Part shown: positions 1 through 32,295 of the stretch, in pieces
Numbering within the stretch: position 1 is the stretch's first letter
Layout: every line of letters begins with the position of its first letter
NCBI GenBank assembly: GCA_965243565.1
Contig: OZ251571.1
Coordinates: 321,523 to 385,522, forward strand
Direction: 5' to 3'
Origin: Gammaproteobacteria bacterium
GTDB lineage: Bacteria > Pseudomonadota > Gammaproteobacteria > Tethybacterales > Persebacteraceae
DNA: 64,000 bases
Notes under the pieces: generated by a model
Told to the model about the DNA's origin: nothing
Databases searched by the model: none
Seen by the model: the letters and a program-made list of their open reading frames with translations, nothing else
Position numbers and translations under genes: made by a program

Positions 1-13
1 GCTAGAAATACCA

Positions 14-931
14 ATGGAAACATCTGTTTACATTATGAACGAGCGACGTTCGGATATGACTAGTATTGAACAAGAAAACAATTGCAAATTTGTAATTATC
101 CCCAATGATAAAATCTTACCGCCTGAATTCATAGTTAAGAAACTAGGTGGAAACGAAAAAAACAAATCTAGCCTGCATCATCTAGAAAAAGCAAAGCACG
201 AAAAAATAGTTAAAATTCGTGAATCAATGGCACCTCAGCAGGAGCAGAAAAAAAGAGAGAGTGTAATACAAACAATGTTGCCAGCGTCTAGTGCGCCTCA
301 AGCCCAATCTAATGGTGGGTTACTCAAGCGGTTCATGCAATTTTTATCAGGTGGCAAGAAAAAACCCCAACCTGTAGCATCATCGTACCAAAAAACCCAA
401 TCGGGTAAAAAAGCACCAAATAAAAAGTACGAAGCGGATAAACGTCATAAAAAACACCTCAATAAAGGCAACAAATTAAAAAACGAAAGACAACCAACAT
501 CCTCTCAATCACCCCAAATGCAAACCAATTCACCACCATTACAATCAAACAAAGGTGGCCAGAATTCACAGCGCCGGCGTAACAAACCAGAGGGTAAAGA
601 CAATGCTCAAAAATTGGCACCCAAAAACATCCATCAGGAAACCTCCCATAATGCGGTTGAAAAACCAATTGAACCAATTGTACCAATTGTACCAATTGCC
701 GATAAAAAAGTAGCAGAAAATAATAAACCCGATAATCAAACAAAAGTAGGCGTTAAACCCACACCGAATGTTGCTGATAAACCCATTCAACCAGCTATTA
801 CACAGAAGAATGTGAAGGTATCGACCAAAGAAGCCAATGGTGGTGATAAAAAGATGAGTGAATCGATATCTCTTCCGCCTATATACTCTGAAGCAACAAA
901 AAGTGCACATTCTGGAACAGCCGAGAAATAA
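14..931 (+). CDS. Lys/Gln/Pro-rich, strongly basic low-complexity protein of unknown function. It has no signal peptide or TM segment. It may extend upstream of the window, since there is no in-frame stop in bases 1-13.
   Basis: 305-aa ORF with a KKxxK-rich run and an internal 'EPIVPIVPIAD' micro-repeat (ccaattgta x3 near 661-690). It reads like a histone H1-like / intrinsically disordered protein. Confidence 0.45.
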   Translation: METSVYIMNERRSDMTSIEQENNCKFVIIPNDKILPPEFIVKKLGGNEKNKSSLHHLEKAKHEKIVKIRESMAPQQEQKKRESVIQTMLPASSAPQAQSNGGLLKRFMQFLSGGKKKPQPVASSYQKTQSGKKAPNKKYEADKRHKKHLNKGNKLKNERQPTSSQSPQMQTNSPPLQSNKGGQNSQRRRNKPEGKDNAQKLAPKNIHQETSHNAVEKPIEPIVPIVPIADKKVAENNKPDNQTKVGVKPTPNVADKPIQPAITQKNVKVSTKEANGGDKKMSESISLPPIYSEATKSAHSGTAEK

Positions 932-1052
932 AACACGAATTATTACCGTGTGGTATGCTATACTATCCATATAAGAAAAGATGTGTAGGTGATGTTGAAA
1001 ATCACAATATAAATATAAACTCTGATTAACAATAAAAAGGGCGGAGGCAAAC

Positions 1053-2402
1053 TTGAGGACAATGAACAAACAAGGGTTGGCATTATTTACAGCAACCATT
1101 TATATTTTTAGCATTAATAATAGCTTTGCACAATTAGATACGTCGGCTTATGTAGCAGACAAATTATCCAATAGTACACAATCTGTTATTAATTTTGAAA
1201 ATTCCTATACGTATCAAGGCAATACATTTGTTCAGATGAGTTCATCAGAACAAAATATCGGTGCATATTACTGTAGTGATGCCGAAGTAGTATTTTTACC
1301 GGTTGAAAATCGACAAAATGGTAATATCTATGTCAATGATGCGTATCAGAACTTATACTTATATAGAAAAAATGGCAATGCAGGTATTCTTAGTGATGCC
1401 ATTCGTCTGCGGTATCAAGGTAAGTTAGATTCTTCTTCATTATTAGGAAGACAAGACTGTACTCAAATGCTCACATCGATTGTCCAATACATCGGCAGCA
1501 ATGGCTTAGCAGAAATCGCCTATTCCAGTGCCGATGGCAATGGATCATTGTTACATTATTTTTCAGAAATTAAAACGACATTCGAATATTTATTTTCCAA
1601 TATTGTGGTTTACCCCAAGGGTGCAGACTATGTCGAAAAATTAGCTGACTGGGCTTTCAATATCCCATTTGGTGCAGGTCAGGTAGAATTAATTACTACT
1701 TCTAGTGAGCTTTTGCAGACAAAAGTTGTACCGATAGCGCGTGAAGCGGGGCAAGTTAAAATTTACACAAGCACCGATTCACCTGAAATGAAAGAATTGC
1801 TTAAAAAAAGTAAGAGCAATCAATTCATTCAATTATCTGATACACAATTAAAATCGCAACGGTTTGCAACTTTAGTATCTCAATTAATAGAGCAAGGGGT
1901 TGATTCTGACATCATATCAGCCACCAATCGATTACCTTCTGTGGACGCAATGGATGACAATGTTTATTCATCTGATGCAATCATATTGGTTAGTCCAAAA
2001 GTGAGCAGTCAAGATGTTGGTGTAGCAATCATTAAATCTGCGATTGGTCAATCAATTTCAACAAACAATACAATTCCAACTGTTGTAAAATCTGTCAAAG
2101 AAACAATTTCAAAAAATGAATTTTATGCTGGAAATGGACAATTATTGTCAACATCATTAAATAATTTTTTAATTGCCAATGGCTATAAAATGATATGGGA
2201 GATAGACTCAGGTGTTGACTGGCGTTTTGATATAGAACAAAAAATCAATGAGAATGGTGTTTTTGTAGAGACGCTAGAAAAAGTCTTAAACAATTTCCCT
2301 GTGCAAGCAGTGATGAGTAGAAACGGGAATACGGTGCGGATTAAAATGCGTCATGCTGACAATGGTAATATTGCAAATAACGTTATTCCATTGATAAACT
2401 AA
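1053..2402 (+). CDS. Secreted or N-terminally anchored protein of unknown function, located immediately upstream of the secretin gene.
   Basis: N-terminal hydrophobic segment 'GLALFTATIYIFSINNSFA|Q' fits a signal peptide or a signal anchor. GGAGG lies about 8 nt upstream of TTG 1053, and ATG 1062 is an alternative start. No recognisable catalytic motif; two Cys residues. Confidence 0.55.
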   Translation: MRTMNKQGLALFTATIYIFSINNSFAQLDTSAYVADKLSNSTQSVINFENSYTYQGNTFVQMSSSEQNIGAYYCSDAEVVFLPVENRQNGNIYVNDAYQNLYLYRKNGNAGILSDAIRLRYQGKLDSSSLLGRQDCTQMLTSIVQYIGSNGLAEIAYSSADGNGSLLHYFSEIKTTFEYLFSNIVVYPKGADYVEKLADWAFNIPFGAGQVELITTSSELLQTKVVPIAREAGQVKIYTSTDSPEMKELLKKSKSNQFIQLSDTQLKSQRFATLVSQLIEQGVDSDIISATNRLPSVDAMDDNVYSSDAIILVSPKVSSQDVGVAIIKSAIGQSISTNNTIPTVVKSVKETISKNEFYAGNGQLLSTSLNNFLIANGYKMIWEIDSGVDWRFDIEQKINENGVFVETLEKVLNNFPVQAVMSRNGNTVRIKMRHADNGNIANNVIPLIN

Positions 2403-2428
2403 AGAGACTTTATAAGGAGATATAAGTA

Positions 2429-3958
2429 GTGATGAACAAAATTACATTATGTGCTTTCATGTCAATGTCAGTATTAATTTCAGGTTGTGTCAGCACAACA
2501 GATAATAGCGCGGATATTCTTGAATCTACCAACGTTATAGTTGAGAAGATGGACAAAGAAATTACTACCAAAGTCGAACAAGAAAGCATTCGAAAATCGG
2601 TCGTTTTTGAAGAAGAATCCACTAAACAAACATCACATTACACCAAAGTAAGTGTACCTAAAAATCCAGTTGATATCAATATAACGAATAAAGTACCCTT
2701 TGGCTTTATATTAGAATCAGTGGCAGCAGATTGGGGTTGGTCTGTGCAGTATGCTCAAGATGTTGACACTTCGATTCCCATTGCATTAAGAATCAATAAT
2801 ATTGATGTCATTGATGCGATGGAAGATATCGCTGGGTTGGCAGGTTACACGGTGATTATAGATAAAAAATTACGTCGATGCACTGTTGCTAGTACAGCAA
2901 CATGGACATTCTTATTGCCAGCCAATGTAACTGATACATTAGCATGGAATTATTCTGTTGGAGGATCTCCATCAGCATCAAGTGAGGAAAGTAGTGGAGG
3001 GCTAGAAGGAATTTCAACTGATAGTACCATTACAGGTAGCACCACAACGGATGGAGAAACGGTAATCAATTTTATTGAAAGTTCTATAAATGCAGGAACT
3101 GGTGAAGCCGCAATTATTTCCAATATTCCAAGTCTGGGCGTAATGTTGGTAACTGGTAATATGGCGCAGCTAAAACGAGCTGAGAAAATAATTACACGAA
3201 TGGTTGATGAAGTTTCAACAAGAGTTGAAATTAACGTTGCTATTGTTGAAATTTCTTTGGAAGATACTTTTCAGTTAGGTGTAAGATGGGAAGACGTGTT
3301 AAGAGGTAATTTCGCTTCCAGTTCACTAGGAGAACTTGTAGGTACTAATGCAACCGCATCAGCATCTTACGTAACGGACGATAATATATCATTTGTATTA
3401 GAAGCACTAAAGAAAAGAACAGATTATAGTATTGTTAGTCGCCCCAACCTATTGATTGATAATCATACACCAGCAGATTTGAGTGATTCACGATCAATTC
3501 CATATATATCTGAAATTGAACAATCTACAACTGATGGCGTAACAACGACAACAGCAACCACAGCTTCAGCAATTGACGGATTGAAATTATCAGTTCTTCC
3601 TCATGTATTGGCGGGAGGAAACCTTGTTCAACTGAAATTAGTGCCATTTTTTGGTGTGATTCCTGAGTACAATGAAATAAATTTTGGACTTGGTGGTGAA
3701 GTACTTTCTCTTAATTTACCAACTCAATCAAATAAACAGGCATTCATTTCAGTTACAGTTGAAAGCGGTCAAACATTGGTATTAGCAGGTAATCGTTATA
3801 GCAATACTAGAAAAAGCAACAGTGGACTACCCTATGTTTCAACGCCATTAACCGATACGACATCTGATACCACCGATGTTACTGAATTAGCAATAATTAT
3901 AAATACAAGAATAATTCTACCACCACCTATTAACGTTATTTTAGATAAATCTTTATAA
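2429..3958 (+). CDS. Outer-membrane secretin with a lipoprotein signal, resembling the type IVb pilus secretins TcpC/BfpB.
   Basis: Lipobox 'LISGC' at the N-terminus. The secretin core starts at 'VEINVAIVEISLEDTFQLGVRWE'. The C-terminus 'GLPYVSTP...TELAIIINTRIILPP' matches the canonical secretin tail '...ELLIFITPRII'. Confidence 0.8.
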   Translation: MMNKITLCAFMSMSVLISGCVSTTDNSADILESTNVIVEKMDKEITTKVEQESIRKSVVFEEESTKQTSHYTKVSVPKNPVDINITNKVPFGFILESVAADWGWSVQYAQDVDTSIPIALRINNIDVIDAMEDIAGLAGYTVIIDKKLRRCTVASTATWTFLLPANVTDTLAWNYSVGGSPSASSEESSGGLEGISTDSTITGSTTTDGETVINFIESSINAGTGEAAIISNIPSLGVMLVTGNMAQLKRAEKIITRMVDEVSTRVEINVAIVEISLEDTFQLGVRWEDVLRGNFASSSLGELVGTNATASASYVTDDNISFVLEALKKRTDYSIVSRPNLLIDNHTPADLSDSRSIPYISEIEQSTTDGVTTTTATTASAIDGLKLSVLPHVLAGGNLVQLKLVPFFGVIPEYNEINFGLGGEVLSLNLPTQSNKQAFISVTVESGQTLVLAGNRYSNTRKSNSGLPYVSTPLTDTTSDTTDVTELAIIINTRIILPPPINVILDKSL

Positions 3959-3992
3959 TCCATTTTTTAAATTAAAACAGGAATATAAATTA

Positions 3993-5273
3993 ATGAGCAA
4001 AAGCGAAAAGTTGATATTTTGGGTTGCTGAGGGCATTAATGACCGAGTAAGTGACAACAACGATGGCGATGATGTTGACGTTGATGAAACTGTAGAAGAA
4101 CAATCTGAATTTTTTTGGCAATGGGATACTCAAAATAACCTAGAACAAATAAAACGATCAGACTTAAGATTAAACAAAAATACGGAAATACTGAGGATAA
4201 GTTCTGACGACATTCTTTTTAATTCCAAAGTCAGTAAACTTAAAAAGCTGATTGGATCCGAGTTTTATTCGGCTTCTTGGAAGAAAAACAAACTGGTATC
4301 AGGTTTTGTTGCTAGTGATTCTGATGAAACCATAATGGAAAAGGCAACAGTTATACCAGATGGTTTATTGTCGATAGACAAGACAGATGTCCCTGATATA
4401 CAAAATGAGCAGCTTCACGCATTACACGTAATTGTTTGGTATTTTGATAGCAGCACTATTTACATATCTTTATTATTAAATAGTATGCGTCAAGGTGCTC
4501 AGGTTACGGAATGGCGACAAGTGCAGCATACTGCAGCAGTAACTGCTACTAATTCACTTAATGCCTTAGTCGATTCTGCTGTTAAAATCAGTGGTATTGA
4601 AGTATCAAGCATGGTAATTAGCTGTGCTATTATTTATTTTGGGGCAAGTGATACTCACTTTAGTGAAGCGGGTGAGGGATTAAAAGTAATCCATGATCGT
4701 ATAACAGAAGACATTAAAGAATTTGGCTTTGCAAAAGCTTTTATGTCAGAGCCTGAAAGTTTTTTAAACATTTGGGCAAATAATAAATTATGGAAGGCTG
4801 AGTATAAAACCACCAAATATTCTATTTTAAATATACCTCAATCGACGGTAATGACGATTATGATAGCAGGAATGTTCTCTGGGTTTCTCTTTTTTTCTGC
4901 TAATGGTGTAATTTCTTTTTTTGATTATAGGGCCACCAACGAAAAAATTGAAAAGGTGCAAGCAGATGCTCAACGGGAAACAGAAAAACTACTACAGCTG
5001 AGTAGAGAAAACATCCAATTGTATATTTCTCAATATACAATGCGAGCACAAGAGGCTACGAAATTTTCTGAATTGTTGTTTTATAAAGGTTTAGAATACA
5101 CTATAGAAGCAGAAGGTAGTAGGTGGGAGGCAACTTCTGAATTACCCAAGGATATCTCTAAAGTGGAAGAAATTAGAAGCCTATTAGCGAATATTGAAGG
5201 TTGTACAACAGTTTTTGATCAAAATGATAATTTACTAGAGAGTGGTAAGGTGACAATAGTATGCGAATTCTAA
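3993..5273 (+). CDS. Bitopic inner-membrane assembly protein with GspL/BfpC-like topology: acidic cytoplasmic N-domain, single TM, periplasmic coiled-coil.
   Basis: No signal peptide. A single hydrophobic helix 'VMTIMIAGMFSGFLFFSANGVISFF' sits near residue 290. Its position between secretin and ATPase matches L-like partners of GspE-family ATPases. Assignment is by topology and context only. Confidence 0.4.
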   Translation: MSKSEKLIFWVAEGINDRVSDNNDGDDVDVDETVEEQSEFFWQWDTQNNLEQIKRSDLRLNKNTEILRISSDDILFNSKVSKLKKLIGSEFYSASWKKNKLVSGFVASDSDETIMEKATVIPDGLLSIDKTDVPDIQNEQLHALHVIVWYFDSSTIYISLLLNSMRQGAQVTEWRQVQHTAAVTATNSLNALVDSAVKISGIEVSSMVISCAIIYFGASDTHFSEAGEGLKVIHDRITEDIKEFGFAKAFMSEPESFLNIWANNKLWKAEYKTTKYSILNIPQSTVMTIMIAGMFSGFLFFSANGVISFFDYRATNEKIEKVQADAQRETEKLLQLSRENIQLYISQYTMRAQEATKFSELLFYKGLEYTIEAEGSRWEATSELPKDISKVEEIRSLLANIEGCTTVFDQNDNLLESGKVTIVCEF

Positions 5274-5827
5274 GTAAGTGGACAATTATATTATTGATAC
5301 TTCTATTAATGGGTAGCGGGTGGTCGTACTATAAATGGCAAAAACCCAAGAGAATAGAGGCAGAGCAACAGCTTCAAACAGAATATAAAAAATATAAAAG
5401 GCATAAAAGTGTAGCTGAAAGATTTAGTAAAAGCATTGAGTCATCGGAGTTAAATATTGATGAAGATAATAAAAATTACAAAAATTTCAGATTTTCATCA
5501 GAAACAAGTCATTTTGACTTTCGTTTGAAATTGTATGATGCTTTGAATGAAAAAATAAAAGATATTGGCCTTGAAGAATTTAAATTAATAGAAACATCCG
5601 AGCAAGTAGGGTCCCCTAGATCTCAGAATTTACCAAAAATACATAAAACTTATGCGACAGAATACTACTTTTCTATTGAAGGTGAGGCTAGTTATGGACA
5701 AGTAGTTGCTTTTATTTTGAAAAAATTACCAGATTTACCAGTGGCAGTAACTCGAATAAAAAAAGACAAAGAGAAGTTTAAAATTAATTTTGTTGTTTGG
5801 CGAATAGAACAAGATGGTGCAAATTGA
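5261..5827 (+). CDS. Small bitopic protein with an N-terminal TM helix, GspM/PilO-like by topology.
   Basis: 'WTIILLILLLMGSGWSYY' is an N-terminal TM helix followed by a roughly 160-aa periplasmic region. Start and stop overlap the neighbouring genes (4-nt and 14-nt overlaps), indicating translational coupling. Confidence 0.35.
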   Translation: MRILSKWTIILLILLLMGSGWSYYKWQKPKRIEAEQQLQTEYKKYKRHKSVAERFSKSIESSELNIDEDNKNYKNFRFSSETSHFDFRLKLYDALNEKIKDIGLEEFKLIETSEQVGSPRSQNLPKIHKTYATEYYFSIEGEASYGQVVAFILKKLPDLPVAVTRIKKDKEKFKINFVVWRIEQDGAN

Positions 5828-7655: not shown

Positions 7656-7662
7656 AAAATAT

Positions 7663-8904
7663 ATGTCTAATCAACGTCCAGGAGTAAAAGGTGACTATTA
7701 TACTTATACCGGAAAAAATTTAGATGGTGAAAAAGAATCAGGTATGGTTTTTGCAACATCGGTTGCCTTGGCTAAGCGATCTGCTGCTAAACGTCTTTTG
7801 TCTGTTCAATCAATATTTAAAGACCCAGTAGCAAATATAGCTTGGAATTTGGGAGATGGTTATTCCAAAGAACAAGTTGCGCGTATGTTTCGTGTTATTG
7901 GAGACAACCTCGAAAGAGGGTCATCTTTGCCCGAAAGCATTTCATTGGCTCGACTGTTTGTAAGCGATCCATATTTACGTTGTGCTTGTTTTAACATACT
8001 AGATCTTATGTCAAGCGGTAAGTCTTTATCGGCTGCTATGGCTGCATCACATTTTAGTGTTGCAGATTGTACTATTGTGGCATCTGTCAGAGGTGGTGGT
8101 GGTGGAGACGCAAATCAAGGAGGCTACGCTAATGCGTTTAGAATTCGTGCGCATGCTTTGGAATTCGAGGCAAAAGGAGAAAAAGAATTAAATCAAGCAT
8201 TAGTTCCATTTATTATCTTTTTGATATTTATTATTGTTATGGTATATATACTGTTGTTTGTAATGGGTAAGCATTCTGGTGATATGTTAAGCGGTGCAAT
8301 ACCCAAGAGAAATCAAATAGGTTTTGTCGGGGGGTATATTAACTTTTTGCAGGATCTCCAAGAAAACATAGGGCTATATACTACTATATATTTTACGTTT
8401 GGAGCGGGGATTATTTTCCCTTTATTTGTAAAGCAACTGCGTTATAAAATGATATCATTCGCTTTTCCATCATTTTCAAAATTTAAATTAGAGCTAGATC
8501 AATACAAGACTTGGCAATTATGGCAGTTACTTCGAATTTCAGGTGTGGATAATGTCCGTATTTTTGCATTAACAGCTAAAATTGTTGATAACCCACTAAT
8601 AATGCAGCAAAATAAAGCGATAATGGAGCAAACCAGACGAGGAAGAGGGCTTGCTGTAATCGTTCGAGATGTGATAAAATCAGCACGATTAAGAGAGCAG
8701 CTAACCTCCGTTCTTGAAGGAAAGTCAGCAGACAAAGGCATGGATATAGTATTATCATTACTACAATTACAAGTAAACGAATACAAAAATAGAGCAGTCT
8801 TATTATTTGGTGGTATGACAAAAGGTATTGTCGCACTTGCTCTGGTTAGTATGATGCTAATGATTATTGGGCCCTCTTTTATGCTAATGGCCAATATAAA
8901 TTAA
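7663..8904 (+). CDS. Inner-membrane platform protein of the GspF/PilC/TcpE family.
   Basis: 413 aa. Three predicted TM segments ('LVPFIIFLIFIIVMVYILLFV', 'LYTTIYFTFGAGIIFPLFV', 'IVALALVSMMLMIIGPSFMLMA') separated by cytoplasmic domains. It sits directly after the ATPase. Confidence 0.7.
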   Translation: MSNQRPGVKGDYYTYTGKNLDGEKESGMVFATSVALAKRSAAKRLLSVQSIFKDPVANIAWNLGDGYSKEQVARMFRVIGDNLERGSSLPESISLARLFVSDPYLRCACFNILDLMSSGKSLSAAMAASHFSVADCTIVASVRGGGGGDANQGGYANAFRIRAHALEFEAKGEKELNQALVPFIIFLIFIIVMVYILLFVMGKHSGDMLSGAIPKRNQIGFVGGYINFLQDLQENIGLYTTIYFTFGAGIIFPLFVKQLRYKMISFAFPSFSKFKLELDQYKTWQLWQLLRISGVDNVRIFALTAKIVDNPLIMQQNKAIMEQTRRGRGLAVIVRDVIKSARLREQLTSVLEGKSADKGMDIVLSLLQLQVNEYKNRAVLLFGGMTKGIVALALVSMMLMIIGPSFMLMANIN

Positions 8905-8950
8905 AGAATTTTTAATAAAACAAAAACTATAAAAAAAAAAGGAGAAAATA

Positions 8951-9517
8951 ATGAAAATTATAAATAAAATAAGCATAATCAAAGGTCGCTTGCGTCAAGT
9001 AGGTTTTACACTGGTGGAACTTGCTTTGGTGGTTGCTGCTTTGGCGATTATTTCAGTTAGTGCTATTGTTGTAAGTGATAGTGTGTTAAGCAATGCACGT
9101 TCATCGTCAATGATTAGTCAAATTAACACAGTACAGACATCTGCCGAATTGGCAAGAGTACATACCAGTTGTAGGGCTTTAAAATTGAATTTCTTAGTAA
9201 CTGATGCAAACGCTGCCGATAATTCATGTGGTAAAGCCAACCTTGCAGGCTGGGAAGGTCCATATATAAGGAATGCAATTATTTTGACTACTGGTATAAT
9301 GAGTCTTGAGACTGTAGCCGCTGGTGCGGAGATGGAAATGAAAGTGGTAGGTGGGATTGCAATTCTTGAGGTGGAAGCAGGCTCAAATGACGTTTTAGAT
9401 GGCATAGTGGCTAGCGTTTGTCCAGATAATCTAGCAGCTTCCTCTCTGGCTAATATTAGTGCTACGAAAACTTGTTTTAGTACCGGTAGTGTAGTAAATC
9501 TCTATATGTCTCAATAA
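8951..9517 (+). CDS. Major type IV prepilin.
   Basis: Leader 'MKIINKISIIKGRLRQVG' followed by 'FTLVELALVVAALAII' gives Gly-1, Phe+1 and Glu+5. Four Cys residues allow two disulfides including a C-terminal D-region pair. Strong SD 'AAGGAG' 7 nt upstream. Hairpin terminator downstream. Confidence 0.8.
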   Translation: MKIINKISIIKGRLRQVGFTLVELALVVAALAIISVSAIVVSDSVLSNARSSSMISQINTVQTSAELARVHTSCRALKLNFLVTDANAADNSCGKANLAGWEGPYIRNAIILTTGIMSLETVAAGAEMEMKVVGGIAILEVEAGSNDVLDGIVASVCPDNLAASSLANISATKTCFSTGSVVNLYMSQ

Positions 9518-9565
9518 TGGTATCTGATTTGTAATTTTACTAAAACAATATTCATTAAAATTTGG

Positions 9566-9600
9566 TTTAGAAGTATTTTTTAATACTTCTAAACTTTTTT
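9566..9600 (+). terminator. Rho-independent terminator/attenuator after the major pilin gene.
   Basis: Perfect 12-bp inverted repeat tttagaagtatt / aatacttctaaa (9566-9577 / 9582-9593) with a 4-nt loop, followed by TTTTTT at 9595-9600. The stem is AU-rich. Confidence 0.45.
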
Positions 9601-9613
9601 AACAGATAAAGCA

Positions 9614-10522
9614 ATGAAATTTAAGCAAAAAGGTGTAACACTGGTTGAACTTTCTTTGGGGCTAGTTGCAACAGCTGTAATTGTGGGGGCGTTATTCCCA
9701 CAATTAGCGCTTGTATTTAGACATATTGAAAGCATACACAACGATAAATTTACGTCACATATTCGTCAAATACTTGTAGAATTTTACCGAAGAAATCCAG
9801 AGGATTTTGTTTCTAATGGAGCTCCCGCTGCCACAGTAGTGGATGTTGTTGATATTAATGAGTTTGCAACAGGAGCATTGGATGATGTCAGTGTTGATTT
9901 TAATAATGAAACATGGCATTATGTGGCTTGCTCAACAAGTGGTCAAATTACGGTACAGCCAGGGGGCGTTCTTAATTTCTGTGATATCATAGGCTACCGT
10001 AACGATGCTCCTCTTACTCTTAATTTAAACAATCGAAATTTGAATTTTTGGAATGGTCTAGTAAACGACGATACAATTGAGAGATTCGAAATAATTTCTG
10101 GACGTTCAATTATTCAAGATCAAATCGACATTACCCGACAGCGTGTAGAAAGGGTGAGAGAGAATTTAGAACAACACGCGGACACACTATTTCGCACAGC
10201 AAAACAAAGAGCATATAGAGTAAATCGTTATGTGGACCATTCAGTAGAAGATACTTATAAAACCAATTATGACTATGATGGTCGAGCAATTTTTGATCGA
10301 AGTCCCGCTATTAATCATGGCGAACGAGCGGCGCTTGGCTTTAATACTAATGATCTTATAACTCCCTTATCAACTGATCTTATTCAAATTGATAATACAT
10401 CAGCAAATATAAGATCGAATGATCATGGGCATGACCCTCCATATACTGCAGAAGTTTTTGTTATTATAAATGCGGGTGGTCTTGCTATCAGAGTGAGTAG
10501 TTTAGCAGTCACAAAAAACTAG
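9614..10522 (+). CDS. Large minor pilin-like protein, paralog 1 of 3.
   Basis: Prepilin N-terminus 'MKFKQKG|VTLVEL' with Glu+5. 302 aa. Shares the Cys-pair block 'W.YV.CS....FCDI.GYRN' and the C-terminal 'DLITP...IDNT...PYTAEVFV' block with the ORFs at 10602 and 13106. Confidence 0.7.
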   Translation: MKFKQKGVTLVELSLGLVATAVIVGALFPQLALVFRHIESIHNDKFTSHIRQILVEFYRRNPEDFVSNGAPAATVVDVVDINEFATGALDDVSVDFNNETWHYVACSTSGQITVQPGGVLNFCDIIGYRNDAPLTLNLNNRNLNFWNGLVNDDTIERFEIISGRSIIQDQIDITRQRVERVRENLEQHADTLFRTAKQRAYRVNRYVDHSVEDTYKTNYDYDGRAIFDRSPAINHGERAALGFNTNDLITPLSTDLIQIDNTSANIRSNDHGHDPPYTAEVFVIINAGGLAIRVSSLAVTKN

Positions 10523-10601
10523 CTAAAAAAATAGGTAATTATTGATAAATTACATATAATAGTACTTAAAAGATACAAATCTAAATATTAATTTATTAAC
10601 A

Positions 10602-11528
10602 ATGAAAATTCAGATTAAAAATCAAAGAGGTGTAACACTGGTTGAAATAGCCATATCTATTGTGCTATTATCTGTGCTTATAACTGTGCTGTTTAATGCG
10701 CTGGGTAATGCAATAGGAAGTATTCAGTATATTAAAAACGAAAAATTTTCACAACATATGCAAAAAACGGTTCTTGAATATTACAAACAAAATGTTTCAG
10801 ATCCTGCTGTAAATCCGCGGACGAGTCAATTCATGGTTGGTGCAGGTAACCCTGCGCCAGTACACATACCTGCAGCTGCTATAAATCCATTTTCATCTGG
10901 CGTTGTTACAGATGTTGCTATTGATTTTAATAACAATAGATGGTGGTATGTGAACTGCTCGTTTAATAATCCTAATAACGTTATAGCAGTAGGGGAGCAA
11001 AATTGGCGCTTTTGTGACATAGTTGCTTACAGAAATGAGAATCAATTGCCTGTAGCCGATTTAGTAATGACAAATATTGCGTTTTGGAATAATAGATTAA
11101 ATGCCAATGTAATTGATGACTACATTATTATATCTGGTAGTAATGTAGTACATGAGGCTGTTTCACAAACACGCAAATCTGTTAAGAGAGTTCGTGATTT
11201 ATTAGAAAATTATTACGTGCTACTTGTTTCGCATACAGAAGAACAACCTTATTTTATTAATCGATTTGCAGGTCATGATGGTTTTAATAAGCAAAGTCAA
11301 ACTTCATATGATGTACGATCGGCATTAAATTCAGACAATGTACTAGATAATAATGAATTATCTGCTATAGGTCTTGTGCCTAATGACTTAATAACACCGT
11401 TCGGAAGCATACAAATTGATAACACAAATAACAATAGGTTCCCTTATACAGCACAGGTGTTTGTTAATTTTCAAGATGTTAATGCGGACACTCTTAAAAT
11501 CAGTACACTTGCTGTTTCTAAACTTTAA
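10602..11528 (+). CDS. Large minor pilin-like protein, paralog 2 of 3.
   Basis: 'MKIQIKNQRG|VTLVEI' with Glu+5. 308 aa. Conserved blocks 'WWYVNCS...RFCDIVAYRN' and 'NDLITPFGSIQIDNT...PYTAQVFV'. Confidence 0.7.
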   Translation: MKIQIKNQRGVTLVEIAISIVLLSVLITVLFNALGNAIGSIQYIKNEKFSQHMQKTVLEYYKQNVSDPAVNPRTSQFMVGAGNPAPVHIPAAAINPFSSGVVTDVAIDFNNNRWWYVNCSFNNPNNVIAVGEQNWRFCDIVAYRNENQLPVADLVMTNIAFWNNRLNANVIDDYIIISGSNVVHEAVSQTRKSVKRVRDLLENYYVLLVSHTEEQPYFINRFAGHDGFNKQSQTSYDVRSALNSDNVLDNNELSAIGLVPNDLITPFGSIQIDNTNNNRFPYTAQVFVNFQDVNADTLKISTLAVSKL

Positions 11529-11540
11529 TAGGAAAAAATT

Positions 11541-12215
11541 ATGAAAAAAAACATTATAAAATTAATAAGTATTGGCTTGGTTTTTTCTGCACAGGTACAT
11601 GCAGAAGAAGTTGATTTATTTGATTACTGCAAGCAAATGGCAAAAGGATTCGCGATATTAGAGGTTAAAACTCAATTAAACTCAAAAGATGATTTAAATA
11701 CCTGCCGTCAATATATTGCTGAATTAGGAGAATTACGTAAACAATTTATCGTCATTGAAGAGTTCGATAGTTTGATTGATGAAGAGGAAGCCGAAGAAGC
11801 AATAGTTGAAGAAGATTATGTCACAGTTGATGATGCTATTTTACTAATACAGAATGAAATAAATAGTCTAAAATCTAAAATTGATAAAGATATAAGCAAG
11901 CAATTAGAAAAAATTAAAAGTGAGCAGCAACCAATTATTACTAATATTGAACAAAATCCAAATGTATCGCCTGTTGAAGAGCAAAAGCAACGGACAGTAG
12001 CAATACAACAACCTAAATCGTTTGAAATGGTTACATTCGTTGGACAGTTGCGTCAAGGGGGAGAGGATAAATACATAATCCAGGTGGATGGCAACCTAAT
12101 CCAATTAACTGAACAAGAAATGTACAAAGGATTTGCTTTTACAAAACAAGGTGACAATTATTATTTGGGAGATATAAAAGTGGCGGATAATCTAGAAACA
12201 TTGGAATCTAACTAA
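11541..12215 (+). CDS. Secreted periplasmic protein of unknown function, paralogous to the ORF at 14153.
   Basis: Signal peptide 'MKKNIIKLISIGLVFSAQVHA'. Conserved 'YC...C..Y.AEL.ELR' block, an acidic coiled linker, and a C-terminal 'YIIQVDGNLIQLTEQEMYKG' block shared with the 14153 ORF. Confidence 0.5.
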   Translation: MKKNIIKLISIGLVFSAQVHAEEVDLFDYCKQMAKGFAILEVKTQLNSKDDLNTCRQYIAELGELRKQFIVIEEFDSLIDEEEAEEAIVEEDYVTVDDAILLIQNEINSLKSKIDKDISKQLEKIKSEQQPIITNIEQNPNVSPVEEQKQRTVAIQQPKSFEMVTFVGQLRQGGEDKYIIQVDGNLIQLTEQEMYKGFAFTKQGDNYYLGDIKVADNLETLESN

Positions 12216-12267
12216 ATATTAGATTGTAGTTTAATGCGACATTATCATTTCATTCAGGAAGCGATTA

Positions 12268-13131
12268 GTGATTAATTCTAGGAGACACAATTATAACTAT
12301 GTACATAGTCAAAAAGGATTGGCATTATTATCGCTGATTCTTTTATTGGGTATAGTTTTAGGTGTAGCGTTGGTTGCATTTTATAATGTAATCGCAGAAG
12401 AGCGTTTAGCACTCCAAAATAATACCACTGATGAAAAATTACAAACTGTAGTTGATGACACAGAGGCTTATTATAGGCATAATCCTGATTTCACTGCACC
12501 CGGTTTTGCAGCTAATGTCTGTTCTTTTGCACTGGCAGTTAGTCCTCCGTTTGGATGTGCATTATCGCCGACTCAATTTTGGGGACGAGAAGGCGAGGTT
12601 ACATTTTTTAATATCCTTATTTTTGAACCTAATGCTGATCTTGCTGATAATGCAACGGTGCCAGTGGCTGCGATTAATGGAGAACAGATACAGTTAAACG
12701 CACAGCGAAATCTAAGAGAGCAACTTCGTAGAATCGTCTCAGTCATAGAAATAAACCATCAGCAAATGCACCAAATCAATGCTGGTGGTCATGCAGATAC
12801 TGGTGTTAATTTGTATTGTTTGAATGGGAACTCTCAAATAGGTCTATTGGGGTGTGAAAGCGATTGGACACCCCTACCTGCTGCTTTCTTAAGTGCGTAC
12901 TTAGCACCAGGAGATCAGGTATCTCCGTTCGGTACTCCTATTGTATACCAGACAGCAGGGACTGTCACCTTAACTGATGTCATTGACAACTATACAATCA
13001 GACCGAATGATTCTTATGATGTTGTGGCAGCCGTAGTTTCTGCAACTACACCTTGGGATAATAATGGGGTGGCTTTTCGAGAATGGGCTGTGGCACTAAA
13101 GGGAAATGCATACCATGATCTCGCGCAATAA
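12268..13131 (+). CDS. Pilin-like protein lacking Glu5, GspK/PilX-like in that respect.
   Basis: Basic leader ending 'SQKG', then the hydrophobic helix 'LALLSLILLLGIVLGVALVAF' with Ser rather than Glu at +5. 287 aa. Embedded among the other pilin-like genes. Confidence 0.4.
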   Translation: MINSRRHNYNYVHSQKGLALLSLILLLGIVLGVALVAFYNVIAEERLALQNNTTDEKLQTVVDDTEAYYRHNPDFTAPGFAANVCSFALAVSPPFGCALSPTQFWGREGEVTFFNILIFEPNADLADNATVPVAAINGEQIQLNAQRNLREQLRRIVSVIEINHQQMHQINAGGHADTGVNLYCLNGNSQIGLLGCESDWTPLPAAFLSAYLAPGDQVSPFGTPIVYQTAGTVTLTDVIDNYTIRPNDSYDVVAAVVSATTPWDNNGVAFREWAVALKGNAYHDLAQ

Positions 13132-14107
13132 AGGTATTACGCTTATAGAAATGGCAATAACTATTGCCGTACTTACTGTTTTAACTGGCGCAGTATTAGT
13201 GTCAGTGCCATTTGATTTGTTAAGTAATCTTCGTCAAAAAAATCATAAAGATTCTGTTGGTATTGTTTTGGATGCCTACTATCAAGTAAATATTGGAAAT
13301 TTAGTTTTTCCCACTGCTGCGGACGTGATTCTAACTACTATTAGTTTTGATGAGATAGAAGCCATTGGGAGGAATCTTAAACTTAATCAAGAAATAAATT
13401 TTAGTCAAGATTCTGGTGGGAGAAATTGGTTTTATGCGCAATGTTCAACATCAGGATTTTTGGATCATGCTGACATCTTTGTTTCTATAGATTCTTCCAC
13501 TAAAATATCATATTGTGGTCTTGTTGCTTATACAACGGGTGAAGCGGGGGCACCACTTGCGAATGATGTTATTAAAAACAAAACTATAGCAGATTGGCAA
13601 AATGCAACAGTGAATCCAGCAATCGAAGATTATGTTATTGTCGAAGGTCGAAGAGGTGTGAGTGCTGAAATAAACAAAACATCTGATAAATTAAATGCAG
13701 TTGTAACAGCATTTGAAGAGTACTATAGACTTTTAGATTCGAATGACCCTGTCGCAGGTATCGCAATTAATCGATTTTCTCATACACCATCACAGAATTA
13801 TGATTTACAGAGAAGAACGATTGATAAAATATCAATTTTACGCAATACTGAAGTAAAAGCTAATGATGATCATTTACTTACACGAAGTTATCAGGCTATA
13901 ATGAAAATTTCAGACGAGACTCTTAATACAGGGTTTGGCGAAATACAATTTGATAATGGCTCCACCAGCATACGAACATCTTCTCACACAACACCGGCTT
14001 ATAAGGTGTACCAAGGACCACCCTATACAGTTGAGTTATGGGTAGAGTTATCCGGGAATGGTGCTATAATGCGGAAGACGGCATCATCTAAAATTTACGG
14101 GTATTAA
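13106..14107 (+). CDS. Large minor pilin-like protein, paralog 3 of 3.
   Basis: 'MISRNKG|ITLIEM' with Glu+5; the start is probably the ATG at 13115. Conserved 'NWFYAQCSTSGF...SYCGLVAY' and 'GFGEIQFDNGSTSIRTS...PPYTVELWV' blocks. Confidence 0.7.
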   Translation: MHTMISRNKGITLIEMAITIAVLTVLTGAVLVSVPFDLLSNLRQKNHKDSVGIVLDAYYQVNIGNLVFPTAADVILTTISFDEIEAIGRNLKLNQEINFSQDSGGRNWFYAQCSTSGFLDHADIFVSIDSSTKISYCGLVAYTTGEAGAPLANDVIKNKTIADWQNATVNPAIEDYVIVEGRRGVSAEINKTSDKLNAVVTAFEEYYRLLDSNDPVAGIAINRFSHTPSQNYDLQRRTIDKISILRNTEVKANDDHLLTRSYQAIMKISDETLNTGFGEIQFDNGSTSIRTSSHTTPAYKVYQGPPYTVELWVELSGNGAIMRKTASSKIYGY

Positions 14108-14152
14108 TGGTATTAATACAATAAAAAATACAAATTTTAAAGGGGTTTTACT

Positions 14153-14872
14153 TTGAATAAATTAAAATTAATAGTTTTATTTTCTTTGCTATTAACAGGC
14201 TCTGTACAAGCAGAGAGTATTGATATCGAAGTATTATCAGTAGAGTACTGTAAAAAATTTCGTGAGGGAGCAACCGTTAATGTTGATAACAATATTCCTG
14301 ATCCAAGTAGTGGCAAAACAGAAATGGCTACAAGTTTTGACGTTACCATCTCTGAAATGGTTAAATGTAAAAAATACTTTGCCAATCTTACCGAACTTAG
14401 GCAGACAATACAGGATGTTAATAGTGATACTGACACAGAATTAGGACGAACTGACGATGTTTTACAAAATAATAATGTTATTTCGCTAGAAAGTTTCAAA
14501 GAAGAAATGGCGTACGAACTTGCTTTATTTGAGGAAAAATATTTTTCGCAAAAGAAAATCGAAATAGAAAATTATGTGCAAAAAATTAACTACGAAGCGC
14601 GTCAGTTAGCGCGTAACAGCAATACCGTTAGAAATACCGTCACTGCGGCCGTTAATCAAACAGCTGATGTTGCCAGCAACAGAGTGCAAACAAAAAAAGA
14701 AGCACCACTATTCTTATTACAAGGGACTTTTCGTCAAAGTGGTACTGAATACTATATCATTAAGAGCTTTGATCAATTGATAACCTTAAAAGAGGGTGAT
14801 TCTTTTAAGGGGAAAAAATTACTTAAAAACCCAAAAGGTCTATATTTTGATGATTATCGTATCATTCAATAA
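14153..14872 (+). CDS. Secreted periplasmic protein, paralog of the 11541 ORF.
   Basis: Signal peptide 'MNKLKLIVLFSLLLTGSVQA'. Shared Cys-pair and C-terminal 'YYIIKSFDQLITLKEGDSFKG' blocks. Confidence 0.5.
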   Translation: MNKLKLIVLFSLLLTGSVQAESIDIEVLSVEYCKKFREGATVNVDNNIPDPSSGKTEMATSFDVTISEMVKCKKYFANLTELRQTIQDVNSDTDTELGRTDDVLQNNNVISLESFKEEMAYELALFEEKYFSQKKIEIENYVQKINYEARQLARNSNTVRNTVTAAVNQTADVASNRVQTKKEAPLFLLQGTFRQSGTEYYIIKSFDQLITLKEGDSFKGKKLLKNPKGLYFDDYRIIQ

Positions 14873-14903
14873 AGTATAATTCATTTTTTTTAGGACTTTA
14901 TTT

Positions 14904-32294: not shown

Positions 32295-32295
32295 A

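What the first reader, a model, noticed from the sequence alone, without database searches (positions are those of the whole stretch)
1..14872. Type IV filament gene cluster with mixed type IVb-pilus and type II-secretion features
All ORFs in this 15-kb block are co-directional and tightly packed, many with start/stop overlaps. Together they encode the core of a type IV filament nanomachine: lipoprotein secretin, GspE-family ATPase with a tetracysteine motif, GspF-family platform, and a prepilin with Gly-1/Phe+1/Glu+5. The composition matches neither canonical class. The lipoprotein secretin and long-leader pilin resemble type IVb pili (Tcp/Bfp/Cof). The secretin-L-like-M-like-ATPase-platform-pilin order and the 1 major plus 4 minor pilin set resemble T2SS (GspD/L/M/E/F/G/H-K). 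No prepilin peptidase, retraction ATPase or GspC homolog is recognisable, and three encoded secreted proteins have no assignable role. The block also reads as more AT-rich than the housekeeping region that follows (visual impression only). It is flanked on its right by an unrelated respiratory gene, so it may be a horizontally acquired island. It could be a colonisation pilus, a dedicated secretion system, or both.
Basis: partly seen in the sequence, partly recalled or inferred. Interest (0 to 1): 0.85.

Follow-up and report, generated by a model that had tools for sequence, protein, structure and literature searches.

The report
Orphan conjugative-element-type type IV pilus operon
This is an intact 13-gene type IV pilus operon from a very rare lineage that is otherwise found only on conjugative plasmids and integrative elements beside their DNA-transfer genes; here it sits alone in the chromosome of an uncultured small-genome bacterium, which suggests that a mobile-element pilus was captured for the cell's own use.

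Summary
Window 1053-14872 carries 13 co-directional, tightly packed genes for a secretin-dependent type IV pilus, and the block is compositionally foreign (GC3 0.25 vs 0.34). ORF 14-931 is the 3' end of rne, so the left boundary lies inside the window.

The "mixed T4bP/T2SS" reading is only partly right. The TcpQ-like / secretin / ~420 aa / ~180 aa / ATPase / platform order is the ordinary order of the Bfp and R64 type IVb operons. No GspC/L/M or pseudopilin signature was detected. The "four minor pilins" are three paralogues plus one other pilin.

The new point is kinship. An exhaustive search of 1.84 billion representatives found only three full-length relatives of the ATPase. They form a 100%-supported subclade, sister (77-91%) to a wider uncharacterised clade and separate from BfpD/R64 PilQ and from GspE/PilB. 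All nine relatives with enough flank lie directly beside conjugation genes (VirB4/8/9/10, or TraG/TraH); a further one lies among domains of unknown function.

The window copy has no T4SS, integrase, retraction ATPase or prepilin peptidase nearby. I read it as a horizontally acquired, orphaned conjugative-type pilus, probably an adhesin, with an expanded minor-pilin/secreted-partner module. It is a new variant of a known kind, of moderate interest.

The parts
932..1052 (+). Intergenic region between the rne stop and the first pilus gene. This is the left edge of the foreign block and the presumed promoter region.
   Evidence: Sequence read. No convincing sigma-70 match was found here, so the promoter is inferred, not shown.
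1053..2402 (+). 449-aa exported protein with a TcpQ/BfpG-type C-terminal domain. It is the presumed secretin partner (the PilL/BfpG/TcpQ position).
   Evidence: Pfam TcpQ E 6.8e-4, 20.1 bits, below the gathering score. Homologues occupy the same position in L003 (E 1e-23) and L002, and those carry weak TcpQ marks. hhalign of the family against BfpG gives E 0.022 over the same ~80 residues. N-terminal signal sequence seen.
2429..3958 (+). Lipoprotein secretin (outer-membrane channel).
   Evidence: Pfam Secretin E 1.2e-17. NCBIfam best hits are MshL 92.7 bits and PilN 57.9 bits, both far below their cut-offs. Best PDB match is BfpB, E 5.8e-9. Lipobox LISG-C20. 39% and 34% identical to the L002 and L003 secretins.
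3993..5273 (+). 426-aa bitopic inner-membrane protein in the BfpC/PilO2/GspL position. It is the presumed alignment or ATPase-docking subunit.
   Evidence: Hydrophobic segment at 284-307. Colinear homologues in L002, L003, L005, L006 and L108. No Pfam or NCBIfam family. hhalign against R64 PilO and BfpC was negative. AF2 pLDDT 36.9. The role is inferred from position and topology only.
5261..5827 (+). 188-aa N-terminally anchored protein in the BfpU/PilP/GspM position.
   Evidence: N-terminal hydrophobic segment at 1-21. Homologues in L002, L003 and L106. No known family. hhalign against R64 PilP and BfpU was negative.
5814..7655 (+). 613-aa extension ATPase (PilB/GspE superfamily) with a family-specific ~320-aa N-terminal region and a tetracysteine motif.
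   Evidence: Pfam T2SSE E 1.4e-48. Walker A at 368 and CxxC pairs at 497/500 and 541/544, conserved in relatives. 43% identical to P0002, 34% to P0003 and 36% to P0244. NJ trees.
7663..8904 (+). 413-aa polytopic platform protein (GspF/PilC family).
   Evidence: Pfam T2SSF 30.3 bits against a cut-off of 25.2. About 30% identical to the L002 and L003 platforms, E 1e-65 to 1e-70. Three hydrophobic blocks.
8951..9517 (+). Major prepilin: 18-aa leader, G|FTLVE, 170-aa mature protein with four cysteines.
   Evidence: N_methyl / TIGR02532 hits. Cleavage motif and Cys74/93/157/175. 32.5% identical to the L002 pilin. Only the N-terminal helix matches solved pilins.
9564..9601 (+). Perfect 14-bp hairpin followed by a U-run, just after the major pilin gene. 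It is a likely attenuator that raises the pilin-to-machinery transcript ratio.
   Evidence: Terminator scan. RNA fold of 9518-9613 gives -20.4 kcal/mol, z -4.25, with 0 of 200 shuffles as stable. Function is inferred.
9614..10522 (+). V1: 302-aa minor pilin (7-aa leader, G|VTLVE) of the 'V' family. Candidate tip subunit.
   Evidence: Motif. 37% identical to V2 and 23% to V3. 29% identical to the 303-aa pilin of L002, E 5e-28. AF2 model pLDDT 49.6, unusable.
10602..11528 (+). V2: 308-aa minor pilin, paralogue of V1.
   Evidence: Pfam N_methyl 26.4 bits. Alignment. A 27-nt 5' coding repeat is shared with V1 at 93% (D8).
11541..12215 (+). S1: 224-aa Sec-exported protein with two N-terminal cysteines, an acidic coiled middle and a small C-terminal beta-rich domain. 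Partner of a V pilin.
   Evidence: Alignment with S2 and with the L002 232-aa protein. The L106 223-aa protein has the same build and position. No known family.
12268..13131 (+). X: 287-aa pilin-like protein with a hydrophobic N-terminus but Ser instead of Glu at +5.
   Evidence: Sequence. Homologues directly follow the major pilin gene in L002 (E 1e-13), L003 and L106. No Pfam hit.
13106..14107 (+). V3: 333-aa minor pilin. It is the copy that keeps the X-V-S order seen in L002 and shares motifs with the L002 V pilin.
   Evidence: Pfam N_methyl 23.2 bits. Alignment. 29% identical to the L002 pilin, E 1e-24.
14153..14872 (+). S2: 239-aa Sec-exported paralogue of S1. This is the last gene of the block; coxB starts 31 nt later.
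   Evidence: Alignment. Sequence at the boundary.

Best explanation
Window 1053-14872 is an intact operon for a secretin-dependent type IV pilus. It belongs to a rare, uncharacterised lineage whose other known members are accessory pili of conjugative plasmids and ICEs, encoded directly beside the mating-pair-formation (T4SS) genes. In role and layout these resemble the R64/TP114/PAPI-1 'thin' conjugative pili. In this genome the operon was acquired horizontally and now stands alone between rne and coxB, without any T4SS.

Proposed working (inferred unless marked shown):
- A prepilin peptidase encoded elsewhere in the genome cleaves the five prepilins at Gly-1.
- The zinc-type PilB-like ATPase drives the GspF-type platform. 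Presence of both is shown; activity is inferred.
- The 426-aa and 188-aa membrane proteins connect the platform to the lipoprotein secretin. The TcpQ-like periplasmic protein helps the secretin assemble.
- The 170-aa major pilin is over-expressed relative to the machinery through the hairpin attenuator after its gene.
- X, which lacks Glu5, together with one of three alternative V minor pilins primes and caps the fibre.
- The exported S proteins bind or are presented by the V subunits.

With no T4SS and no retraction ATPase nearby, the likeliest present role is adhesion (cell-cell or to a host surface) rather than mating.
For: Machine parts:
- Parts identified by Pfam/NCBIfam, PDB matches and sequence motifs.
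- All 13 ORFs are intact and tightly packed.

Kinship:
- A word-indexed search of 5.8e9 proteins found only P0002 (43%) and P0003 (34%) as full-length relatives.
- Exhaustive HMMER over 1.84e9 representatives added only P0244. The next full-length class scores below 260 bits, against more than 540 bits for the subclade.
- The whole gene set is colinear with L002 and L003.

Context of relatives:
- L002 and L003 are ~74 kb contigs whose assembler names end in 'c', read here as a circularity flag. In both, the pil cluster immediately follows VirB4, VirB8, VirB9 and VirB10.
- The Robbsia and Limnohabitans plasmids show the same arrangement after VirB9/10(/11/T4CP).
- Five metagenome loci with enough upstream flank have TraG_N and TraH directly upstream.
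- That makes 9 of 9 relatives with enough flank. The P0244 loci, not counted among these nine, lie among DUF2958 and DUF3577 genes.

Phylogeny (NJ on the ATPase):
- The window subclade has 100% support.
- It joins the Robbsia-type clade at 91% (27 taxa) and 77% (65 taxa).
- It is apart from BfpD + R64 PilQ and from GspE/HofB/PilB.

Foreign origin:
- GC3 is 0.253 against 0.339 (p 1.8e-7) and RSCU r is 0.78 against 0.98 for the control.
- No orthologue exists in relatives of the host that are present in the same database.
- The rest of the window is housekeeping: dnaX, hslUV, nrdAB, pst, his and SRP RNA.

Module conservation:
- The order X-V-S is found in L002 and in L106.

Attenuator hairpin:
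-.
Against: - No experiment and no expression data exist.
- The roles of five proteins (426 aa, 188 aa, X, V, S) rest on position, topology and conservation only. Profile comparisons with R64 and Bfp counterparts were negative, and both AF2 models were unusable.
- The deep placement of the ATPase clade is unresolved (bootstraps 8-57%). The trees are NJ with few reference sequences; TcpT, CofH and MshE could not be included.
- No att repeats, integrase or tRNA mark the island.
- All sampled relatives have higher GC than the window block (0.41-0.56 against 0.36), so the donor is unknown.
- Only 64 kb of a 1.68 Mb replicon was visible. A T4SS, pilT or pilD elsewhere, or a plasmid that uses this pilus in trans, cannot be excluded.
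Confidence: 0.7

Rival explanations
1. It is a dedicated secretion machine that works like a T2SS, or like the TcpF/CofJ export function of some type IVb pili. A short pilus or pseudopilus pushes the Sec-exported S proteins (11541-12215, 14153-14872) through the secretin, and the V pilins act as their adaptors.
For: - S1 and S2 have cleavable signal peptides and no lipobox or membrane anchor.
- An S gene follows a V pilin gene in the window twice, in L002 and in L106.
- No retraction ATPase is present in the window.
- It is established knowledge (my own, not tested here) that TCP and Cof/Longus pili export TcpF and CofJ through their minor pilin.
Against: - There is no GspC, GspL, GspM or GspG signature.
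- L003 has the machine but neither V nor S, so S export is not the core function of the lineage.
- The major pilin is a 170-aa pilin with an 18-aa leader followed by a strong attenuator. This is typical of abundant fibre subunits.
- The S C-terminal domain could equally be a periplasmic assembly factor.
Confidence: 0.15
2. It is an ordinary member of the classical type IVb pili (Tcp/Bfp/Cof/Longus/R64), that is, a colonisation pilus of a well-described class that has simply diverged.
For: - The operon order equals bfpG-B-C-U-D-E and R64 pilL-N-O-P-Q-R-S.
- The secretin is a lipoprotein whose best solved match is BfpB.
- There is a weak TcpQ domain upstream of the secretin.
- The major pilin leader is long, at 18 aa.
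Against: - The ATPase scores 141 bits to PilF, 113 to GspE and 109 to PilB, but only 64 to BfpD.
- BLAST to R64 PilQ and BfpD gives E 5e-22 and 4e-20, whereas those two match each other at E 2e-46. The platform has no BLAST hit to PilR or BfpE, whereas those two match each other at E 2e-47.
- The NJ trees keep BfpD + PilQ apart from the window clade.
- The pilin has Phe at +1 and the minor pilins have short leaders.
Confidence: 0.1
3. It is an MSHA-type pilus (MSH class), with the AAA_22 ATPase gene 3 kb downstream (17785-19656) acting as MshM.
For: - The best NCBIfam model for the secretin is MshL, E 1.9e-26.
- An ExeA/MshM-like AAA_22 ATPase lies nearby.
- MSH loci lack a prepilin peptidase (PMC6668835).
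Against: - The MshL score of 92.7 bits is far below the 250-bit cut-off.
- The ATPase has no T2SSE_N/MshE N-terminal domain.
- No MshI/J/K/N/G-specific hits were found.
- The AAA_22 gene has host-like neighbours, and its homologue sits near coxB in L019, a betaproteobacterial MAG locus in which no pil homologues were found.
- The gene order differs from msh (my own knowledge).
Confidence: 0.03
4. It is a decaying remnant of an integrated conjugative element and no longer makes a pilus.
For: - T4SS, relaxase, integrase, peptidase and retraction ATPase are all missing from the neighbourhood.
- A degraded copy of a related cluster exists elsewhere: in L001 the secretin and platform genes are split.
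Against: - All 13 ORFs are full length relative to their homologues, with catalytic motifs intact.
- Translational coupling overlaps are preserved.
- The V/S module has been duplicated and has diverged rather than been lost.
Confidence: 0.07

Closest known systems
Conjugative 'thin' type IVb pili of IncI1 R64, IncI2 TP114 and the ICE PAPI-1 (PilL-PilV)
   Same: - It is a pilus operon carried by conjugative elements next to the transfer genes. This holds for the relatives of the window cluster.
- The gene order is the same: periplasmic TcpQ-domain protein, lipoprotein secretin, ~430-aa and ~150-190-aa membrane proteins, ATPase, platform, major pilin, then a large minor pilin.
- The large minor pilin is the variable element. 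In R64, TP114 and PAPI-1, PilV is the tip adhesin that chooses recipients (PMC9045228, PMC5297154, listed).
   Different: - No NCBIfam PilL/M/N/O2/P model is met.
- The accessory proteins show no profile similarity.
- The ATPase and platform are much further from PilQ and PilR than BfpD and BfpE are.
- There is no PilT-type transglycosylase, PilU peptidase, shufflon or recombinase.
- Variation here comes from three paralogous V genes plus S partners.
- The window copy has no T4SS at all.
Uncharacterised pil clusters of Robbsia, Variovorax and Limnohabitans plasmids and related metagenomic ICE-like loci
   Same: - They form the sister clade of the ATPase (77-91% bootstrap).
- Synteny is the same, including the X-like and V-like pilins.
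- The secretin is 25-26% identical, E 1e-33 to 1e-44.
   Different: - ATPase identity is only 28-31%.
- These clusters carry a PilT-like retraction ATPase and other downstream genes, and have no S protein.
- They sit next to VirB or TraG/TraH genes. The window copy does not.
Bundle-forming pilus of EPEC (bfpA-L)
   Same: - The order G-B-C-U-D-E matches.
- Both have a lipoprotein secretin, and BfpB is the best PDB match.
- Both have a TcpQ/BfpG-like domain.
- Both carry several minor pilins at the end of the operon.
   Different: - The major pilin gene is first in bfp.
- Bfp has BfpF, BfpP and BfpH.
- Sequence similarity is limited to the ATPase core (27%, E 4e-20) and the secretin (25%, E 2e-6).
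Type II secretion system (GspC-O)
   Same: - The ATPase core and tetracysteine motif score about as well to GspE as to PilB.
- One pilin-like protein lacks Glu5, as GspK does.
   Different: - There is no GspC, GspL, GspM, GspG or H-I-J-K signature.
- The gsp order, with L and M after the pseudopilins, is not the order seen here.

Membership tests
Type IV filament superfamily (any class) | Co-located PilB/GspE-family ATPase, GspF/PilC-family platform and at least one class III signal (prepilin) protein | tested here: met
   T2SSE E 1.4e-48, T2SSF 30.3 bits (above the cut-off), N_methyl/TIGR02532 hits and G|FTLVE motifs.
Type IV filament superfamily (any class) | Prepilin peptidase (A24 family) | tested here: not met
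   None in the 64 kb (tblastn with GspO, BfpP and R64 PilU at E<1). It may be a 'loner' elsewhere in the genome, as TXSScan models allow (PMC6668835), so this does not exclude membership.
Classical type IVb pilus (Tcp/Bfp/Cof/Longus/R64) | Extension ATPase, platform and secretin branch with TcpT/BfpD/CofH/PilQ and their partners | tested here: not met
   The NJ trees place BfpD + R64 PilQ apart from the window clade. Bit scores and E-values agree. Caveat: the method is NJ, TcpT and CofH are missing, and deep nodes are weak.
Classical type IVb pilus (Tcp/Bfp/Cof/Longus/R64) | Major pilin with a long leader (about 15-30 aa), a non-Phe +1 residue and a mature length of about 180-200 aa (my knowledge of the class) | tested here: inconclusive
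   The leader is 18 aa (fits), +1 is Phe (type IVa-like) and the mature protein is 170 aa (intermediate).
Classical type IVb pilus (Tcp/Bfp/Cof/Longus/R64) | Single operon with a lipoprotein secretin preceded by a TcpQ/BfpG/PilL-type protein and followed by two membrane proteins, the ATPase and the platform | tested here: met
   The order matches bfp and R64 pil. Lipobox. The TcpQ domain is only weak.
R64-type conjugative thin pilus (PilL-V) | PilL, PilM, PilN, PilO2 and PilP equivalogs (NCBIfam) | tested here: not met
   Only PilN matches (TIGR02520), at 57.9 bits against a cut-off of 287.65. The others give no hit, and hhalign was negative.
R64-type conjugative thin pilus (PilL-V) | Encoded on a conjugative element beside its T4SS genes | tested here: not met
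   This is met by all nine relatives with enough flank. It is not met by the window copy, which lies between rne and coxB with no T4SS homologue in 64 kb.
R64-type conjugative thin pilus (PilL-V) | PilV adhesin diversified by a shufflon and Rci recombinase | tested here: not met
   There are no inverted sfx-like repeats or recombinase. Three separate V paralogues are present instead.
Type II secretion system | GspC, GspL, GspM, the GspG major pseudopilin and the GspH-I-J-K set | tested here: not met
   There are no Pfam or NCBIfam hits above threshold. TIGR01710 scores only 16 bits against a cut-off of 88.85, and on V3. tblastn with E. coli GspC/L/M found nothing. The minor pilins are paralogues.
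MSHA pilus (MSH class) | MshE with an N-terminal T2SSE_N/c-di-GMP domain, MshM/MshN, and MshL at equivalog level | tested here: not met
   MshL scores 92.7 bits against 250.2. The ATPase has no T2SSE_N domain. The nearby AAA_22 gene looks native, because its homologue lies near coxB in L019.
Conjugative-element-associated pil clade defined here (window, P0002, P0003, P0244, with the Robbsia type as sister) | Monophyly of the ATPase plus colinear TcpQ-like / secretin / ~420 aa / ~180 aa / ATPase / platform / pilin / X genes | tested here: met
   Bootstrap is 100% for the four-member subclade and 77-91% with the sister clade. Colinearity and pairwise homology are shown for every gene.

The most novel reading that the evidence does not exclude
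The window operon and its three relatives form a distinct, previously unnamed class of type IV filament that evolved as an accessory of conjugative elements. In this small-genome, probably host-associated bacterium it has been domesticated into a colonisation device. Three interchangeable V tip pilins each recruit or export a dedicated secreted S protein, so one machine combines a pilus with TcpF/CofJ-like secretion, and its specificity is diversified by gene duplication instead of a shufflon.
Probability: 0.2. Interest if true: 0.65.

Novelty: new variant of a known kind. Interest (0 to 1): 0.45.

Why it matters
Conjugative type IV pili are known almost entirely from the IncI/PAPI-1 PilL-V system, where they set recipient range and strongly raise transfer in liquid and in the gut (PMC9045228, PMC7508951).

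This work points to a separate, deep-branching and barely sampled lineage of such pili. It is linked to at least two kinds of mating machinery: VirB-type genes and TraG/TraH-type genes.

It also shows one member that has left its element and persists intact in a chromosome. If confirmed, that would be a concrete case of a mobile-element appendage being co-opted by a cell.

The lineage also supplies five conserved protein families without any known fold or family (the 426-aa protein, the 188-aa protein, X, V and S). These could be studied as new pilus-assembly or tip components.

Tried and rejected
1. Structure route. AF2 on the V pilins (three window paralogues) gave pLDDT 49.6, and on the 426-aa protein plus its Robbsia homologue gave 36.9. 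Both are too poor for fold searches, so none was run.
2. Profile-profile comparison of the 426-aa, 188-aa, S and TcpQ-like families with R64 PilO/PilP/PilM/PilL and with BfpC/BfpU gave no signal. Only BfpG was marginal, at E 0.022.
3. Pfam at relaxed thresholds on all family members of the 426-aa, 188-aa, S and X proteins found nothing consistent.
4. A profile search of the 5.8e9-protein database with the 426-aa family returned only the query itself and the Robbsia protein.
5. A GTDB species-genome scan with the ATPase N-domain found nothing, not even the source genome.
6. An 'empty site' test was attempted through coxB relatives. The closest locus (L011, 70% identical) has nadA rather than rne upstream, so synteny is not conserved and the test is uninformative.
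7. A search for att-like direct repeats, a shufflon, tRNA or integrase at the edges found none.
8. The MSH idea (best secretin model MshL, AAA_22 gene nearby) was rejected; see the rival explanations.
9. The idea that the AAA_22 gene, coxB and SSADH belong to the island was rejected. Their GC3 (0.29-0.30) is within 1.3-1.6 sd below the window mean, and L019 keeps the AAA_22 homologue near coxB while showing no homologue of any pil gene.

Full report
WHAT IS THERE

The + strand of window 14-14872 carries 14 ORFs. Gaps are at most 122 nt and there are three start/stop overlaps.

The first ORF (14-931) is not part of the system. Its N-terminus matches the end of the RNase E/G catalytic region (Pfam E 1.6e-5). 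All seven PDB matches are RNase E residues 443-522. The rest of the ORF is a low-complexity tail. The cluster therefore runs from 1053 to 14872 and its left edge is inside the window.

The right neighbour is coxB (COX2 plus a cytochrome c domain), followed by a succinate-semialdehyde dehydrogenase. The remaining 45 kb is housekeeping: hslUV, nadA, apaH, dnaX, SRP RNA, hscBA, nrdAB, birA, coaX, pstSCAB-phoU and hisF.

THE THIRTEEN GENES

The core parts are recognisable:
- A secretin (Pfam E 1.2e-17) with a lipobox ending at Cys20.
- A 613-aa PilB/GspE-family ATPase (E 1.4e-48) with Walker A and two CxxC pairs.
- A GspF-family platform protein.
- A prepilin with an 18-aa leader and G|FTLVE.
- Three larger pilins (302, 308 and 333 aa) with 7-10-aa leaders.
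- A 287-aa pilin-like protein lacking Glu5.

Every NCBIfam class-specific model is missed by a wide margin:
- GspE scores 155 bits against a cut-off of 630.
- PilB scores 147 against 676.
- MshL scores 93 against 250.
- PilN scores 58 against 288.
- GspF scores 26 against 424.

Five proteins have no family at all: the 426-aa and 188-aa membrane proteins, the Glu5-less pilin 'X', and the two exported paralogues 'S1' and 'S2'.

The first gene product (449 aa, exported) has a weak TcpQ-type C-terminal domain. Pfam gives E 6.8e-4, below the gathering score. hhalign of its family against BfpG gives E 0.022 in the same region.

A perfect 14-bp hairpin plus a U-run follows the major pilin gene. Its fold energy is -20.4 kcal/mol, z -4.25. 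I read it as an attenuator.

WHO THE RELATIVES ARE

The ATPase has almost no close kin.
- In the 5.8-billion-protein collection, only P0002 (43% identity) and P0003 (34%) match over the full length.
- An exhaustive HMMER search of 1.84 billion cluster representatives added only P0244. After these four (above 540 bits), scores fall to about 340 bits for ~1000-aa tandem double ATPases that match only the core. They then fall to 200-256 bits for a set of roughly 40 proteins of 570-870 aa.

P0002 and P0003 lie on ~74 kb metagenome contigs whose assembler names end in 'c', which I read as a circularity flag. There, a colinear cluster immediately follows VirB4, a VirB6-like protein, VirB8, VirB9 and VirB10. 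The cluster order is TcpQ-like, secretin, ~410 aa, ~170 aa, ATPase, platform, pilin, X, and so on. Pairwise BLAST links every window gene except S1/S2 to its positional counterpart. S1 and S2 are linked by alignment.

P0244 sits on contigs with the same order plus a PilT-like ATPase, a V pilin and an S-like protein, next to DUF2958 and DUF3577 genes.

In PLSDB the best matches (31% identity, E about 1e-48) are plasmids of Robbsia, Variovorax and Limnohabitans. The same gene order follows VirB9/VirB10, or VirB10/VirB11/coupling protein.

A metagenome scan seeded on the clade-specific N2 region found 15 more loci of this Robbsia type. In all five with at least 3 kb of upstream sequence, the cluster is preceded by TraG_N (E 1e-53 to 1e-59) and TraH homologues. 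One of these lies on a 667 kb contig, so it is probably an ICE.

Thus nine of nine relatives with enough flank are adjacent to conjugation genes. The P0244 loci are not counted among these nine.

PHYLOGENY AND COMPARISON WITH NAMED SYSTEMS

Neighbour-joining trees of the ATPase gave these supports, with 200 bootstraps each on 27 taxa/340 columns and on 65 taxa/465 columns:
- 100% for the four-member window subclade.
- 91% and 77% for its union with the Robbsia-type clade.
- Separation from BfpD + R64 PilQ and from GspE/HofB/PilB-like sequences.
- Unresolved deeper nodes.

Score comparisons agree.
- Against solved structures, the ATPase scores 141 bits to PilF, 113 to GspE, 109 to PilB and 64 to BfpD.
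- By BLAST it matches R64 PilQ at E 5e-22 and BfpD at E 4e-20, whereas those two match each other at E 2e-46.
- The platform has no BLAST hit to PilR or BfpE, although those two match each other at E 2e-47.
- The secretin's best solved match is BfpB, E 5.8e-9.

No GspC/L/M or pseudopilin signature exists.

The system therefore works like a type IVb or conjugative thin pilus and shares its layout. By sequence it is not a member of the Tcp/Bfp/Cof/R64 group, of T2SS or of MSH. Denise et al. (PMC6668835) list 101 of 309 non-redundant systems as 'generic', and this one would probably fall there. I could not run their models.

THE PILIN MODULE

V1 and V2 are 37% identical, and V1 and V3 are 23% identical. 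All three resemble the single 303-aa pilin of L002 (27-29%). V3 shares the most motifs with it.

- L002 has the order pilin - X - V - S.
- L106 has pilin - X - PilT-like - V - S.
- L003 has only pilin - X.
- The window has pilin - V1 - V2 - S1 - X - V3 - S2.

I interpret X-V3-S2 as the ancestral arrangement, and V1-V2-S1 as an added, duplicated module.

The S proteins share a signal peptide, two N-terminal cysteines, an acidic coiled middle and a short conserved C-terminal beta-rich segment with the motif G..RQ.G.

By analogy with PilV of R64/TP114/PAPI-1, the tip adhesin that selects recipients (PMC9045228, PMC5297154), I propose that the V proteins are alternative tip subunits. By analogy with minor-pilin-dependent TcpF/CofJ export (my own knowledge), I propose that the S proteins are their exported partners. 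This is inference only.

FOREIGN ORIGIN

- Cluster genes have GC 0.359 against 0.404 for the other 41 ORFs, and GC3 0.253 against 0.339 (Mann-Whitney p 1.8e-7).
- The RSCU correlation with the rest of the window is 0.78, against 0.98 for a split-half control. AGA has RSCU 2.11 in the cluster against 0.72 elsewhere.
- The host is an unnamed proteobacterium. NrdA is 77%, 70% and 68% identical to unnamed metagenomic proteins, one on a 1.82 Mb contig, and about 64% to Burkholderiales and Nitrosomonadales.
- The best CoxB matches in GTDB species genomes are a sea-cave gammaproteobacterial MAG (70%) and Candidatus Amphirhobacter (57%), in the order Candidatus Tethybacterales.
- None of these relatives contributed an ATPase above 43% identity, so the operon is not shared with them.
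- There is no tRNA, integrase or flanking repeat. All sampled relatives are GC-richer (0.41-0.56). The route and the donor are therefore unknown.

MECHANISM AND VERDICT

Shown:
- A complete, intact set of type IV pilus machine genes.
- Membership of a rare ATPase clade.
- Conjugative-element context for the relatives.
- Foreign composition.
- No T4SS, retraction ATPase or peptidase within 64 kb.

Inferred:
- Processing by a peptidase encoded elsewhere.
- The roles of the 426-aa and 188-aa proteins as alignment subunits. The only structural hint is a predicted TM, long helix and beta-beta-alpha-beta-beta C-terminus at pLDDT 51-65.
- The TcpQ-like protein as a secretin helper.
- X plus V as the priming or tip complex, and S as its partner.
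- Present function as an adhesin rather than a mating pilus.

Interest is moderate. The main value lies in the unrecognised conjugation-linked pilus lineage and its apparent capture by a chromosome.

Noticed in passing
window 14904-16082 (and 14873-14903): coxB (COX2 with a fused C-terminal cytochrome c) starts 31 nt after the last pilus gene, with no terminator between them. No coxA exists anywhere in the window, and coxB is followed by a succinate-semialdehyde dehydrogenase. In Ca. Amphirhobacter (L012) a probable coxA (543-aa ORF, identified by reading its sequence) follows coxB.
   Followed up: partly
window 17785-19656: A 623-aa AAA_22 ATPase related to the ExeA/EpsI-type 'XrtA/PEP-CTERM system-associated ATPase' (TIGR03015, E 4e-66, below its cut-off) lies 3 kb from the pilus operon. 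A 40%-identical homologue lies about 8 kb from coxB in a betaproteobacterial MAG (L019) where no pil homologues were found, so it is probably native and unrelated to the pilus.
   Followed up: partly
window 32212-33702: A 496-aa N6/N4 DNA methyltransferase ORF sits between nrdA and nrdB and overlaps the end of nrdA by about 80 nt. This is an odd place for an apparently orphan methylase.
   Followed up: no
window 57896-58678 (- strand): A 260-aa ORF with the lowest GC outside the pilus block (0.336) and no NCBIfam hit. It may be another foreign gene.
   Followed up: no
window 25723-25817 (- strand): Bacterial small SRP RNA (Rfam RF00169, 58.6 bits), immediately upstream of dnaX. It is the only Rfam match in the window.
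   Followed up: yes
P0004, P0245-P0257 (database proteins, not in the window): After the four-member subclade, the next-best matches to the ATPase profile are ~1000-aa proteins that look like tandem fusions of two PilB-like ATPases (P0004 aligns as two copies). Only the core domain matches.
   Followed up: no
L001 5127-13027: In the same metagenome as L002, a 26.7 kb linear contig carries a near-identical cluster in which the VirB10, secretin, ~410-aa and platform genes are split into fragments. This is either a decaying copy or an assembly-error variant.
   Followed up: no
L097 15940-17602; L098 19636-20393: Some Robbsia-type loci carry a second secretin-family gene several kb downstream of the pilin genes (Pfam Secretin E 3.4e-12 in L097).
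   Followed up: no
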